DNA from: Octopus vulgaris | Lineage: Eukaryota | Reading direction: 5' to 3' | Assembly: GCA_951406725.2 (NCBI GenBank) | Contig: OX597833.1 | Span: 35,960,001-36,024,000 of the forward strand | Length of the DNA: 64,000 bases | Part shown: piece after piece, positions 12,512-61,755 of the stretch | Numbering within the stretch: the stretch's first letter is position 1 | Layout of the letters: every line of letters begins with the position of its first letter | Translations under genes and position numbers: made by a program | The notes under the pieces: generated by a model | The model's database searches: none | Told to the model about the DNA's origin: nothing | What the model saw: the letters and a program-made list of their open reading frames with translations, nothing else

Positions 12512-12522
12512 CAGATAAATAA

Positions 12523-12860
12523 TAAGGGTGGCTTATTTGCAATTTAACAACCGAAAGGCAGAAATATATATGTCACTAGAGTGACTAAGGACGCTGGTCA
12601 GCACCAGAGTTAAAACAATGTATAGCCACGAGAAAGCATTTATCGTGATGACTGACAGGGGAGGTAAGCTCCCTACAGCATCCGAGTATAGCCAGATCAC
12701 CAGTGATTTCGCATTTTAATTAATGCTCGTCAGTGGCTCTCACCCAACGCCTAGGATTAAACTCAACTTGTCTTGTCAGTTAATAGACCACCATAGAAAT
12801 AACACGCTTGTTTCATAAATAGTAAAAGTGAAAATTATGAATATTAAGGGTGGGTTATTC
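12523..12860 (-). mobile_element. Candidate non-LTR retrozyme monomer 1 (~322-nt unit)
   Basis: Imperfect terminal direct repeat TAAGGGTGGCTTATTTGC (12523) and TAAGGGTGGGTTATTCGC (12845); contains a canonical HHR. Confidence 0.7.
12690..12738 (-). ncRNA. Type I hammerhead ribozyme, canonical core
   Basis: Minus strand AGCCA-CUGACGA-GCAUU(AAUUAA)AAUGC-GAAA-UCAC(UG)GUGA-UC^UGGCU; all three helices pair; predicted cut between 12695 and 12694. Confidence 0.9.
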
Positions 12861-13016: not shown

Positions 13017-13021
<5 letters not shown>

Positions 13022-13431
13022 AAAAAGAAAATGGAAGGGATCAATAGGTGGTTCATCAACTTTTAGACGTTATATTATACCAACTTATTTATTTATTTAC
13101 TAAAATGACAATTACAGGAATATACATACATGTATAACATATTATGCTTTACATATATGATATAAAATATATCAATATATAAAGATACCAGTAATTATTA
13201 AAATACAGGAATATAAATTGGGAAATTTTCCAATTTATATTCCTGTATGTTATTTTTCAATAATTACTGGTATCTTTATATATTAATATATTTTATATCT
13301 AAAGCATAATATGTTATACATGTATGTATATTCCTGTAATTGTCATTTTAATAAATAAATAAATAAGTTAACATAATATGTCTAAAAGTTGATGAACCAC
13401 ATATTGATCCCCTTCATTTTCTTATTGCTCT
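13017..13431. repeat. ~415-bp foldback (inverted repeat, ~200-bp arms)
   Basis: Arms are reverse complementary with a few small indels; centre TTGGGAAATTTTCCAA near 13225. Confidence 0.95.
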
Positions 13432-13620
13432 ATAAGTTAATGGTAAAATATCTCTTTACCTTCACCCATTTAGTACACTCGGTAATGTAATTGCAATGCA
13501 ATAAAAAAAACACTTGCATGTTTATAATTGGGTATTCTACCAGCAGTATATTAGATAGATATTATCTCTTAGTTGGTTGGATTCACAGCCTATAACTTAT
13601 TTGGAAATATATATATATAT

Positions 13621-13994
13621 AACAATGATAAATATCAGAGTGAGTTATCAACAGTAGCAGAAACACATCGTGATGTAAATATGCCATTTGAATATGGCTA
13701 ACCCCTAAGGGTGGATGCTACTGTAGTTTTTAGCTCCAGGAAGACATCTCCTCCAGCGGACTATAGACACACACTTTCTGTGCCCTATCAGTATTTGCAA
13801 AGGGAAGCCATCCTTCCCGTCTTCAACTTATGATGCACACGGACCCGAGTTTCAAGGTATTGACCTATCATCAGCGTGTGACAATCACAGTTGTCGATAG
13901 GAAGGAGGTTCTCTTTACAAATACATATACTTTTTCCAGTTTTCAGTGACACTGATATTGAAAAAGTGAAATCAAACAATGATAAATATCAGAG
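13621..13994 (-). mobile_element. Candidate non-LTR retrozyme monomer 2 (354-nt unit)
   Basis: Exact 20-bp direct repeat AACAATGATAAATATCAGAG at 13621 and 13975; contains an HHR with long extended stem I (13791-13924). Confidence 0.78.
13836..13880 (-). ncRNA. Type I hammerhead ribozyme, canonical core
   Basis: Minus strand CACACG-CUGAUGA-UAGGU(CAAU)ACCUU-GAAAC-UCGG-GUC^CGUGUG; self-complementary stem III ACUCGGGU; predicted cut between 13842 and 13841. Confidence 0.9.
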
Positions 13995-33759: not shown

Positions 33760-35105
33760 TTTTTATTATTCCAAAGCAATTACTTGCTAATGTAATTTAC
33801 AGGAATGCTACCTGGAGGTTTCGTGACAACAAGCCGCCTCAGATCTCAAGAATATTTCTTAAGGTTTTGCAGACTACAGAACTGAACTATTCTACAGGTC
33901 GGCAATGCGGGTCCAGTTCAAATACATTTCAGTTTCTTAGGTAGCAGTTTAGGTTTTATGCCAAGTGCATCAATTACCACAGATATAATTGTTGTCATAG
34001 TCTTCCACAATCTCTTCAGCTCTCTGGCTAGCCCCTGATATTTCTAATTTTTTGTTTCCAATTTCTTTGTCATCATCTCTTTTATGAAATGATTTTACTT
34101 TCGTTGTTTATTTTGTCACCTATAATCATATCAGTAATTCTTGTTCTCTACCATAGCCTCTGGGTCGTATTCGTACCATTTTCGTATTATTTCAAAGCCA
34201 TACACTCAACTAATATCCCAATGCACATTATTTTTCTTAAACAGTCATGCTTACACTTACACTCTTTTTCAGCTAGCTTACTGCGTTCATTCAAGAGATG
34301 ATAAATACTTTCATCTCCTTTTGTGCAGATTCTGCATTTGCTGCCCGACTGTGATTTATCAATCTTTCTGTTCATCAGATTCATCCTAATGGCTTTTTTC
34401 CCCTTGATTTAGCTATAGTTAGCGCTTCGGTCTCTCTTTTCAGTTTTCCTCCGTCAACCATAACCAGCGTTCTATGCATCCAGCGTTCTCGGTTTGCGGC
34501 ATGAATTGGCCATGTAATTCCATTTCTTTCCCCCTGCATGCCCTCTTGTTCTTCCCTTTATTCTTGAATTCTTCTGCTGTTTCAGTAACTTTTTGAACGT
34601 CTCTAACTACCGATAGTATTCTTTCTTCACTCGTACAGCATAATTTTTCAACTTTAATATTGTTGTACTAACGGTGTCATTTGCCTTCTTTCTTTTATTG
34701 GTAGGTAGACTATATCGGTCTTACTGTTAGAGTGGTGCACGTTATGAGCATCTACCTAGTCCTATAGCTCGATCTTTGTCCATTTTATGAAGGAAGCAGA
34801 GTATGTTAATAATGGTACAGCCCATGTGTTTATTGCTTTAATGATATTACCTCCATTTAATTTTGTTTCAAGCAACTTCCTAGTTATTCTTTTGTACACT
34901 TTGGAGATTTTCTCTCTCAGTTCTCCTTCCATTATCCTTTCGCCTTGCAGCACGCCTGAATATTTGTATCTTTCATTATTTCACAACGATCTAATGATGT
35001 TGCCCTATGGTAATTTTATGCCATCAGAAATTATCTTCTGATCTCTCTTCATAATTAGCACTACGCAGTTATTTACCCTAAACTGCATGCCAATATCCTT
35101 GCTTT
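33760..35105 (-). mobile_element. R4/Dong-like LINE remnant
   Basis: KLNGGNIIKAINTWAVPLLTYS and CRICTKGDESIYH; adjacent (TTA)n. Confidence 0.82.
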
Positions 35106-36442: not shown

Positions 36443-36514
<72 letters not shown>

Positions 36515-36519
36515 GAGTG

Positions 36520-37625
36520 TTTTGATGTGAAGGTGATGTATTTCAGTGGCTTTTTAACTTATACATGGACGGTGTGGTGAGAGAGGTAAATGCTGGAACT
36601 CTTGGTAGAGGACCCTAAATGGTAGGAGAAAATGGTGAGGAATAGCAAGTGAGTCAGCTGTTGTTTGCTGATGATACAACGCTGGTGGCGGACTCGGAAG
36701 AGCAACTGAAGGGATTGGTAGTAGACTTTGGAAGAGTGTTGTGTGAGTGGAGAAAACTGAAAGAGAATGTAGCTAAGAGTAAGGTGATGAGATGTTCGAG
36801 AGTTGGAATGGCCGGTAGGATGAATGTGAGTATAAATGGTGAGATGTTAGAAGGGGTGAGTGTTTTTAGGTATCTGGAATCACCAATGACGGCGGATGGG
36901 GTGTATGTGACTAAGGAGGTGAGATACAAAGTGAGGGAGGGGAGTAAGATACTTGGAGTTGTGAAAGGTATGCTGAGAGATAAATGGTTGAGTATGAAAG
37001 CGAAAAGAGTTGTGTATGAGTGCGTGATTGGGCCAACAATGCTACATGGTGCAGAGACGTGGGGTCTGTGAGATGCAGAAAGGAGGTGACTAGATGTGTT
37101 TGAGATGAGATGTTTGAGGGCTATTGTTGGTGTGACATGGATGGACAGGATAAGGAATGAGGAGGTGCGAAGAAGAACAGGAAAGAGAGGAAAACTACCA
37201 ACCAGATTGGGTAGACGAATATTGAGGTGGTTTGGCCAGTTGGAGAGGATGGATGAGGAACGAATGGTAAGGAGGGGGATGAAGGCGGAAGTAGTAGGCA
37301 GCAGAATCAGAGGCAGAACTCGGTTTGTGGGGATGGATGAAGTGAGGAAAGCTTTGGTGGTTAGGTGTTGGGGTGAGAGAAGCAAGAGTGTTTATAAATG
37401 ACAGGACAGTGTTTGTGGACGAATGAGTGAATTTGATGTTGCTCAAAGGGGTACGGAACCATCACGATGCGGCGGGGGTACACCAGCATATGCTGTCGGG
37501 CCCCGCTGCTGATATTGGGGTTTGCGTTCTATGCTTTGATCCGAGCAATCTAGAAAATGAATGGAATGCCTGGTGTGTCTTGTTGCGGCTACCCCCTCCT
37601 AAAAATGGGGAATAGGCCTGGGTAT
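36520..37625 (+). mobile_element. RTE-clade LINE, 5'-truncated and decayed
   Basis: QLLFADDTTLVADSEEQL, FRYL, LHGAETW, FEMRCLRAIVGVTWMDRIRNEEVR, LRWFG; in-frame stops. Confidence 0.92.
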
Positions 37626-59524: not shown

Positions 59525-61755
59525 TAATGTGATGAAAGCTCACAGTTTATTTTGTTGAGTAAGATGGAAAATGTCTGCTGTCCACAGCCAGCAGATTAAG
59601 GTGACATTTGTTTACTGGTCATGCTTCAAGAACTCACCGAAGAGTCTTGCAGTTCCAAGCAATGCTGATTTTTGTAGGTGTTCTGCCTTCACAATTGCAC
59701 CAGTCTTTTTTAGCCATGCTGGTCGTTGAGTGCTGATTCTTCCAAGTGCACCGATTGCTATTGGTCTACTCTCCTCATTGATCATAACCTTCGTATTTTC
59801 CACTTAAAACCGTCAAAGTTGTTTATTTTTTATTTTTCTTTCACATTGATCCTGTTCTCAGTGGGGCATGCTATGTCGATTATCATGCATGTTCTTTGTT
59901 TTTTATTCGCCATAACTATGTCCAGTTTCCGATGTCTAAGCAGGTGATCGCACTGGATCATTGCATCCCACATGATTTTTAAATTCTCATTCTCGGTGAT
60001 TCCTTCTGGGGTTTGCTCAGACCACGTCTTTGCTCTTTGTAGGTCGTGATTCCCACAAATATCCCAATGGATCAATCTTGCCACATTGTCATGGCGTCTT
60101 TTATATTCACGTTGTGAATTTCGGGCACTCGATAACGATGTGCCATACCGTTTCACCCCTTTCACCACACATTCTGCATTTGTTGCTGTCGGGTGTGTTG
60201 TCTATTCTGCACTTTACATAGTTGGTTCTTAACGCTTGTTCTTGAGCTGCGCATATGAGTGCTTCTGTCTCTATCTTCAGATCACTCCTCCTCATCCATA
60301 GCCACCGGTTCTTTGTTTCTGTCATGTTCCTTCCATGCTAGTTTTTTTCTTTTTTTGTTCATTTCTTGTTTAAGTTTTTCTTTAGTTACACAATTTTCAG
60401 TTTTGATGACGCCAGCCTTCTTCGTATGTTTCAACAATGGCTCCACGACTTTTTAGATACCACCCTAAGCATTTCTGCTCTGCTTCGATACAGTCCTGGC
60501 AACTGATGAGGCCTCTCCCACCTTTTCTTCTGGACAAGTACAGCCTATTGGTGTCACTCTTAGAGTGGAAGGCTCCATGTACTGTCAACATTTTTCTGGT
60601 CTTCGTATCCAATTTCTTCACTTCTCCCTTTTGCCATTTTATAATTTCCGCTTCATACCGAAATGATGCTGTCGCTTGGATTTTATTCCATCCAGTCAAT
60701 TTTGAACGCAACACCACCCTTAGTCTTCGTAAATACTCCACTCTCAGTTGCTCTTTCAATTCCTTCTGCATTATCCCATTGGACCCTATTACACCAAGGT
60801 ATTCGTAGCCTTTTGTTTCAATTTCTTTAATCAAGTCTCTATTCGGTAATTCTATCCCTGCTAGGACCTGTACCTTGCCTCTTTTTAGGTAGATTATTCC
60901 GCACTTCTTGAGTCCAAATTCCATTCTACTAACAGTACTAAAACAGTGGACCGTGTTCACCAAGGAACTCACTTGTGTCTCATCCTTGCCATAGATTTTC
61001 AATTCATCCATGAAGAGGCGGTTTATTGTTTTAGATTTTCCCTTTAGTTCGTACCCCAGCTTCATTTTCCCAAGTACCAAGGCCAGGGGTATCATGCAGA
61101 TAATAAAAGCAACAGAAATAAGTTATTACTCAGGGAAATCCCTCTTCTGATACCCAGAGTGCCGAAGCTTTTCCCGTAAGATGTCAGTTCAGTCTTCCAC
61201 CCCTCCATAATTCTCTTCAAGAAATACGTTACGTTCCACGCAATTCCAAACAGATCTAAGCACTTGATGATTCCCGAATGTGGAATAAGCTTTGCGATAG
61301 TCAACCCAGGCCATTCCTAAATGTGTTCTCCTTCGTTTACAATCTTGCGTTACCATTTTATCTATCAATAATCGATCTTTCGTACCTCTACAGCCTTTTT
61401 GTTCTGTTGGTAATATATCAATCTCATCAAGAAATGTGTACAGTTTTTCTGCAATTCCTCCTAATAGTAACTTTCACATTAATGGGAAGCAGGGAATTGG
61501 TCTGTAATTGTCAGCAGCATTTCCCTTTGATGCATCTTTCAGACACAACGCCATTCGTCCTTTTGTCAACCAACGCGAGATTTCTTCTTCTCCATTATTC
61601 AATGCATTAAATTGCCCTACGATCGATTTATGAGAGCTACTGAACTTTTTATCCAAAATGCCTATACACCAACAAGTCCTGCTACTTTCGAATTTCTTAT
61701 CTTTTTACTCATATTTCTGATGTCTTCTGTGAAGTGCGTAGCATCTTGCTGGGAT
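59525..61755 (-). mobile_element. R4/Dong-like non-LTR retrotransposon, 5'-truncated pseudogene (RT, CCHC, RLE)
   Basis: NYRPI, LFMDELKIY, MEFGLKKC, GGRGLI, ETEALICAAQEQAL, CRMCGERGETVWHIVIEC, RHDNVARLIHW, RKLDIV, IIDIACP, LQKSALLGTAR; frameshifts; (TAA)n on both flanks. Confidence 0.95.

What the first reader, a model, noticed from the sequence alone, without database searches (positions are those of the whole stretch)
13621..13994. Candidate retrozyme 2: 354-nt unit with exact 20-nt terminal redundancy and a hammerhead capping a long rod
Seen: AACAATGATAAATATCAGAG occurs at 13621 and 13975. The minus-strand HHR is CACACG CUGAUGA UAGGU-CAAU-ACCUU GAAAC UCGG GUC^CGUGUG. Stem III ACUCGGGU is self-complementary with G-U pairs, the signature of dimeric cleavage. 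Stem I extends through a small internal loop into ~45 further mostly paired positions (13791-13924). The sequence looks unrelated to unit 1. Inference: a second, independent viroid-like circRNA retroelement family, plausibly mobilised by Penelope-like RTs whose remnants occur in this window.
Basis: partly seen in the sequence, partly recalled or inferred. Interest (0 to 1): 0.88.

Follow-up and report, generated by a model that had tools for sequence, protein, structure and literature searches.

The report
Penelope-mobilised hammerhead retrozyme, 352-base family
This is one copy of a widely scattered, protein-free jumping repeat that carries a predicted self-cutting RNA motif; it belongs to a known kind (animal retrozymes), and the shape of its copies suggests that a Penelope-type retrotransposon enzyme likely pastes it into TA repeats by copying one small RNA, probably a circle, from two fixed start points.

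Summary
The 20-mer repeat, the type I hammerhead motif and the long rod are all present as described. The element is one of at least 576 dispersed hammerhead-bearing copies of a 352-354-nt family. The 20-nt redundancy is not a target duplication and not a fixed feature. It is where this copy stopped after 1.06 rounds of the unit; other arms overrun by 2-2814 nt. Copies begin at two fixed points about 43 nt apart, next to (TA)n. Two-armed inverted insertions use one start each (68 of 71). This is the Penelope 'tail' footprint, also seen in open-framed Neptune-type elements of this genome. Arms read through the predicted cut site, and rare variants recur in every pass, which fits repeated copying of one RNA circle. 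A linear uncut multimer template is not excluded. Cleavage, dimer dependence, expression and circularity are untested. No Penelope remnant was found in the window; its RT remnants are LINE-type. The family is homologous to a 360-nt family elsewhere in the genome. This scan already reported the same kind of element on other DNA of this genome. Verdict: a new member of the known non-LTR retrozymes.

The parts
13621..13994 (-). Whole insertion, 374 nt = 1.06 units; RNA sense is the minus strand
   Evidence: family match covers exactly this span; right flank is unrelated sequence
13621..13974 (-). One unit, 354 nt (most relatives 352-353; this copy has a 2-nt insertion); 41% GC, 66% paired as a predicted circle
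13621..13640 (.). First copy of the 20-mer; the insertion begins at the first fixed start (unit positions 1-5)
13975..13994 (.). Second copy of the 20-mer: the first 20 nt of a second round, where this copy stopped
13607..13620 (.). (AT)7 target microsatellite next to the fixed end
   Evidence: 99 of 108 fixed-start arms abut TA repeats
13624..13666 (-). 43-nt optional 'tail' between the two fixed starts (unit position 4 = 13624, position 47 = 13667)
13836..13880 (-). Type I hammerhead motif; predicted cut between 13842 and 13841
13843..13850 (-). Stem III plus loop; self-complementary octamer (2 bp + tetraloop as monomer, 8 bp as dimer)
13791..13924 (-). Long rod continuing stem I (predicted)

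Best explanation
This is a single-hammerhead copy of a 352-354-nt non-coding repeat family with fixed starts at TA microsatellites, likely a non-autonomous retrozyme written into the genome by a Penelope-like (Neptune-type) RT and GIY-YIG enzyme from a small RNA that is probably a circle. Shown: the family, the two fixed starts, the TA targets, the inverted two-arm copies, read-through of the predicted cut site and variants shared by all passes of one insertion. Inferred steps: (1) a multimeric locus is transcribed; (2) two hammerheads cut, possibly helped by pairing of the palindromic stems III, and a host ligase closes the unit; (3) the borrowed Penelope protein nicks (TA)n on one or both strands and starts reverse transcription inside the RNA at unit position 1-5 or 47; (4) it runs round the template and stops at variable points. 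When both strands are extended, the two arms start at different sites and meet as an inversion. The window copy is a one-arm product that ran 374 nt, and on its own it would be a dead end.
For: Family size: 576 hits to a 27-nt hammerhead pattern with up to 1 mismatch, control 0; 997 exact hits to a 22-nt stem I pattern. In a start-selected sample of 67 insertions, 108 of 116 segments begin at one of two sites and 99 of those 108 abut TA repeats. 68 of 71 two-arm insertions pair one start of each kind, 3 use site 47 twice, 0 use site 4 twice (binomial p about 2e-17 against independent choice). A 30-40-bp tail and inverted 5'-truncated arms are described Penelope features (PMC8557442, passages), and the tail equals the stretch between two internal RT starts in vitro, with both strands cut and extended (PMC11167929, parts 1-2 of 4 read). 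The genome has near-identical RT + GIY-YIG elements with 781-codon open frames that end in (TA)n at two points about 38 nt apart. 42 of 48 arms that reach the cut site read through it. 42 of 261 rare variants in multi-pass regions are shared by two or more passes, for example 9/9, 6/6 and 5/5; 10 strictly private variants in 8 insertions are shared by both opposite arms. Stem II shows an A-U to G-C double change between subfamilies, and stem III is self-complementary in the five representatives folded. One insertion has both arms ending exactly at the predicted 5' end of the cut RNA, with stuttered terminal repeats (L187).
Against: No test of cleavage, circularity or expression was possible. 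In vitro a Penelope protein used uncut RNA and did not need hammerhead cleavage (PMC11167929), so a linear multimer transcript could be the template; 18 of 150 insertions hold two or more hammerheads in one arm. 61 of 114 hammerhead-covering insertions carry the U4C core change, described as considerably lowering activity in vitro (PMC3088659, passage). The catalytic fold lies 5-6 kcal/mol above the minimum-energy fold in five representatives. Core positions are not clearly more conserved than the rest: 1.4% against 2.0% within subfamilies, and 2 of 13 core sites among the 52 of 354 sites that differ between them. Stops exactly at the cut site are not enriched: 3 arms of about 1016, against 2 at a control position. 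No sequence link to a particular Penelope family was found in 38 loci, so the partner is unidentified. Covariation counts rest on a few subfamily events, not independent ones.
Confidence: 0.7

Rival explanations
1. Same Penelope mobilisation, but the template is an uncut linear transcript of a multimeric locus; the hammerhead is slow or vestigial and no circle is needed.
For: Uncut RNA was the dominant substrate in vitro for an anole Penelope protein (PMC11167929). Multimers up to 9 units exist. U4C subfamilies spread well. Units within a young multimer are near-identical, so shared variants would also arise.
Against: Variants shared by all passes were rare or private in the 150 insertions sampled, with no parent array seen. 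Long arrays are scarce: 6 of 150 insertions have three or more hammerheads in one arm. One insertion ends exactly at the cut site on both arms. Related animal retrozymes do form circles (PMC7229834, results parts 1-2 of 3). My sample is only a fraction of about 1000 copies, so parents could be unseen.
Confidence: 0.25
2. The 20-mer is a target-site duplication around a 334-nt insert, or a chance or local duplication.
For: An exact 20-nt direct repeat bounds the element in this one copy.
Against: The 20-mer is internal family sequence in copies on many contigs, and other arms overrun by 2-2814 nt.
Confidence: 0.01
3. The element is a LINE-mobilised SINE or a satellite spread by DNA recombination, and the hammerhead is incidental.
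For: LINE remnants lie in the window; one 9-unit array has no TA flank.
Against: Two fixed internal starts, TA targets, head-to-tail overrun and inverted arms with different starts match the genome's Penelope-type elements. From established knowledge, LINE priming starts at the RNA's 3' end.
Confidence: 0.04

Closest known systems
Metazoan non-LTR retrozymes (Cervera and de la Pena 2020, PMC7229834; mussel 350-390 bp, axolotl Rtz_353 with HHR_Amex2)
   Same: Unit of about 350 nt, GC under 50%, no coding, one type I hammerhead per unit, highly paired predicted circle, head-to-tail copies. Hammerhead build as described for HHR_Amex2: 2-bp stem III with tetraloop and a U.U mismatch at the base of stem II.
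   Different: Mostly dispersed 0.1-2-unit copies with inverted arms rather than long arrays; two fixed starts at (TA)n; over half of the sampled hammerheads have U4C. Circles and cleavage are shown there and untested here.
Non-LTR retrozymes as non-autonomous Penelope derivatives (Li, Clavereau and Pollet 2026, 10.64898/2026.07.22.740005, parts 1-3 of 5 read)
   Same: Co-occurs with open-framed EN+ Penelope-like elements; solo monomers and multimers both present.
   Different: That work rests on co-occurrence and pLTR homology, mainly in vertebrates. Here the link is the insertion footprint, and no pLTR homology was found in the loci tested. The window copy fails their 'active' criterion of two hammerheads.
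EN+ Penelope-like elements, Neptune type (PMC8557442; PAc in vitro, PMC11167929)
   Same: Tail between two internal starts, inverted 5'-truncated arm, partial tandems, AT-rich or (TA)n targets, hammerhead.
   Different: No ORF; the tail is 43-46 nt rather than 30-40; the two arms nearly always use different starts, whereas PAc in vitro showed no strand difference in start site.
Other hammerhead repeat families in this genome noted by this scan (359, 360, 485, 491 nt)
   Same: Same reported architecture; a 360-nt repeat in locus L123 is homologous along its length.

Membership tests
Metazoan non-LTR retrozyme | Type I hammerhead with canonical core in each unit | tested here: met
   Motif complete in the window copy; 0 hits in 100 shuffled windows. 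No Rfam model matched.
Metazoan non-LTR retrozyme | Non-coding unit of 150-450 nt, GC under 50%, no long terminal repeats | tested here: met
   352-354 nt, 41% GC; no ORF of 90 aa or more in the span.
Metazoan non-LTR retrozyme | Head-to-tail repeats with two or more hammerheads | tested here: met
   Met for the family (18 of 150 insertions, up to 9 units); not met for the window copy, which has one.
Metazoan non-LTR retrozyme | Highly self-paired unit structure | tested here: met
   Predicted only: z -5.5 as circle; 94.6% of cells paired across 36 copies, 7 pairs with double changes.
Metazoan non-LTR retrozyme | Self-cleavage at the predicted site | not testable with these tools
   Only an indirect hint: one insertion ends at the site on both arms.
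Metazoan non-LTR retrozyme | Expressed as unit-length linear and circular RNA | tested here: inconclusive
   Only contigs of runs not on record as RNA were available.
Non-autonomous Penelope-like element | Optional tail from two fixed internal starts | tested here: met
   108 of 116 segments start at two sites 43-46 nt apart.
Non-autonomous Penelope-like element | Partial tandems and inverted 5'-truncated arm | tested here: met
   71 two-arm insertions and 83 arms longer than one unit among 150 insertions.
Non-autonomous Penelope-like element | Autonomous RT + GIY-YIG partner with the same target in the genome | tested here: met
   781-codon open frames, (TA)n ends at two points. Clade named from motifs, no tree built.
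Non-autonomous Penelope-like element | Sequence homology to the partner's pLTR | tested here: inconclusive
   None found in 38 GIY-YIG loci covering three protein types, out of 6136 first-look candidates.
Obligate dimeric hammerhead (newt, axolotl HHR_Amex1 type) | Stem III too weak for monomer cleavage; palindromic loop | tested here: inconclusive
   Palindrome present, but stem III has 2 bp like the less dimer-dependent HHR_Amex2 (22% monomer cleavage in 1 h, more as dimer; PMC7229834).
Viroid-like self-replicating RNA | RNA-to-RNA replication, opposite-polarity strand or ribozyme | tested here: inconclusive
   No plus-strand type I hammerhead in the window; no stranded RNA data.

The most novel reading that the evidence does not exclude
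A dimeric Penelope-type protein binds one 352-nt RNA circle and primes both nicked DNA strands, each at its own fixed site 43 nt apart. This strand-to-site assignment (68 of 71 two-arm insertions) was not seen in vitro for the one Penelope protein tested. The genome would then record rolling-circle reverse transcription of a ribozyme-made circle, and, in one insertion, the cut linear RNA itself.
Probability: 0.4. Interest if true: 0.62.

Novelty: new member of a known kind. Interest (0 to 1): 0.38.

Why it matters
As a family it is ordinary: animal non-LTR retrozymes and their proposed Penelope link are published, and this scan has noted sister families in this genome. Its value is as a test system. 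How retrozymes get back into genomes, and what the hammerhead does in the Penelope cycle, are open questions. A 352-nt RNA with mapped start sites, natural core variants (U4 or C4, paired or mismatched stem II base) and candidate partner proteins with open frames makes both questions testable in vitro.

Tried and rejected
Target-site duplication: rejected. Rfam: no hammerhead match in the window or in 13780-13940. Penelope remnants in the window: none by Pfam on 150 of 289 complex reading frames, by motif scan, or by tblastn with the genome's Penelope-type proteins; short or very old remnants could be missed. A 19-nt match between the unit and the 781-codon element lies inside that element, not at its ends, and was set aside as chance. 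The family copy in L121 is a separate insertion about 600 nt past that element's end. Excess of arms stopping at the cut site: a hint (6 of 48 within 12 nt) did not hold in the genome-wide test (3 arms in 2 insertions, control 2). RNA-editing signature: none, 8 T>C against 7 A>G among shared variants. Core conservation: no clear signal. Expression: no RNA holder listed. Contigs of 5 guessed-RNA runs cover most or all of the unit, but the silent-flank control was empty in the large comparison run of unstated kind too, so nothing is concluded. The first repeat scan was swamped by microsatellites. Literature: a search for 'octopus' with 'hammerhead ribozyme' gave 5 papers (4 listed), none by title or abstract start on such elements (listing only). 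A cephalopod repeat-annotation paper has 0 occurrences of 'ribozyme' or 'retrozyme' in its main text (PMC13282606, passages). Supplements of PMC7229834 were not read and those of the 2026 preprint are closed; either may list this family.

Full report
Observation. The 20-mer is exact at 13621 and 13975 and cannot be extended. The minus strand carries a complete type I hammerhead motif at 13880-13836, with the predicted cut between 13842 and 13841. A descriptor that allows one mismatch at the base of stem II finds only this motif and unit 1 in the window, and none in 100 shuffled windows. The rod 13791-13924 is part of the minimum-energy fold (z -6.1 linear; z -5.5 circular). Rfam has no matching model. 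The window lies on contig C20 of a 2.8-Gb genome. I take the host to be a cephalopod from its sequence character and recall; no call names it.

The family. A genome search gave 2984 first-look candidates, 40 scored, 83 matches at 86-100% identity. Pattern counts give 576 hammerhead hits with up to 1 mismatch, 527 exact hits near the start and 997 exact hits in stem I; reversed controls gave 0. I mapped 150 insertions, distinct by their longest arm. They came from best BLAST hits, hammerhead-pattern hits, start-pattern hits on C1 and C2, and 20 loci chosen mostly for multimers, so only the 67-insertion start-selected set is close to unbiased. Four subfamilies differ at 52 of 354 sites and diverge 1.3-2.8% internally. 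The window copy is in the CUGAUGA subfamily, 1.7% from its nearest sampled relative. Contigs from four organism labels hold parts of it.

What the 20-mer is. Other copies contain the same 20-mer internally and overrun the unit by 2-2814 nt (83 arms). It is neither a target duplication nor a defined terminal repeat. The window copy began at the first fixed start, ran 374 nt and stopped. It has one hammerhead, as do 94 of 150 insertions; 18 have two or more in one arm and 38 have none.

The Penelope footprint. In the start-selected set 108 of 116 segments begin at unit positions near 4 (47) or near 47 (61), and 99 of these 108 abut TA repeats. Among 71 two-arm inverted insertions, 68 use one start of each kind, 3 use 47 twice and none uses 4 twice. 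Craig et al. describe partial tandems, an inverted 5'-truncated copy and a 30-40-bp tail as Penelope features (PMC8557442, passages). Frangieh et al. show in vitro that a Penelope protein cuts and extends both strands of AT-rich DNA and starts at two internal sites that bound the tail. They saw no strand difference in start site, and hammerhead cleavage was not needed (PMC11167929, parts 1-2 of 4). This genome has many GIY-YIG loci (148 matches among 150 scored of 6136 candidates), including near-identical 781-codon RT + GIY-YIG frames. One family ends in (TA)n at two points about 38 nt apart: 22 short and 6 long ends among 33 classified in 38 partly overlapping loci. I call them Neptune-type from the cysteine linker before a C-terminal nuclease; no tree was built. 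No terminal homology to the unit was found, so the partner is unknown. The window itself showed only LINE-type RT remnants.

Circle or linear template. Arms cross the predicted cut site: 42 of 48 that reach it. Genome-wide, of 19 hits with another letter after the site, 15 are point changes that run on, 1 stops 6 nt later and 3 arms in 2 insertions stop exactly there; a control position gave 2 stops in 6 hits. So cut linear monomers are rarely the template. One insertion is the exception: both arms end at the first base of the predicted cut product. Of 261 rare variants in multi-pass regions, 42 recur in two or more passes, often in all, and 10 private variants in 8 insertions recur in both opposite arms. 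This shows one template sequence per insertion. It fits a circle copied repeatedly, but also a transcript of a young uniform multimer. The RNA-editing idea of e1-8662707 found no support here (8 T>C against 7 A>G).

The ribozyme. Stem II changes between subfamilies keep or improve pairing (A-U to G-C; U.U to G-C), and stem III is self-complementary in the representatives tested. Across 36 copies 94.6% of cells in the named structure pair and 7 of 79 pairs show double changes, above 499 of 500 shuffles; these are related sequences and few events. Against activity: 61 of 114 hammerhead-covering insertions have U4C, a slow but tolerated variant in a viroid (PMC3088659, passage); the catalytic fold is 5-6 kcal/mol above the most stable fold; the core is not clearly more conserved than the rest. 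The build matches axolotl HHR_Amex2, which cut 22% as monomer in an hour and better as dimer (PMC7229834, results parts 1-2 of 3). Dimer help is plausible, not shown.

Relatives. The unit aligns along its length with a 360-nt hammerhead repeat in L123 (score 186; 200 shuffles 59 +/- 9, maximum 90.5) but not with unit 1 (43.5; shuffles 44.5 +/- 7.3). Earlier notes of this scan describe 359-, 360-, 485- and 491-nt families with the same architecture; none matched this sequence. They are unchecked notes, not support.

Verdict. A real, young non-LTR retrozyme family with a clear Penelope insertion footprint; new member of a known kind (PMC7229834; 10.64898/2026.07.22.740005, parts 1-3 of 5). Confidence is about 0.95 for Penelope-type mobilisation and 0.7 for the full model with a circular template. 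Interest 0.38. The boldest reading, a dimeric enzyme priming both strands at assigned sites on one circle, has probability about 0.4 and would deserve about 0.62.

Noticed in passing
window 13021-13427: Long AT-rich fold-back palindrome, 368 of 390 aligned positions self-complementary; MITE-like or an inverted duplication.
   Followed up: partly
window about 12515-12860: Unit 1: an older hammerhead repeat (copies 73-83% alike, period about 325 nt) with two apparent starts near 12515 and 12563 beside TA repeats. It shares one short motif with this family at the first start (25 of 31 identical, E 0.038), with no overall homology.
   Followed up: partly
window 36500-37600, 34190-34408, 60110-60337: Weak RT and zf-RVT matches of LINE type, not Penelope; the LINE label rests on recalled motifs.
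   Followed up: partly
L187:812-1236 (G000 C2): Both arms end exactly at the predicted 5' end of the cut RNA and are joined by three short imperfect repeats of the terminal sequence, like repeated re-priming at an RNA end.
   Followed up: partly
L215-L230: A 353-nt subfamily with fully paired stem II and CUGACGA core is the most uniform (1.3% mean divergence) and often multimeric; my sample of it was chosen for multimers, so the rate is not measured.
   Followed up: partly
L232:610-700 and 1045-1130: The host flank is duplicated in inverted orientation on both sides of a one-arm insertion.
   Followed up: no
L111, L114: The young Neptune-type element has a separate upstream frame of 346-466 codons before the 781-codon RT + GIY-YIG frame; an intron, frameshift or second ORF is possible.
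   Followed up: partly
unit positions 277-296 (window 13897-13916): The most variable stretch between subfamilies lies in the middle of the predicted rod, where pairing is weakest across copies.
   Followed up: no
L159:1900-5050: A 9-unit array without TA flanks, with three variants shared by all 9 units; a possible source locus or local expansion.
   Followed up: partly
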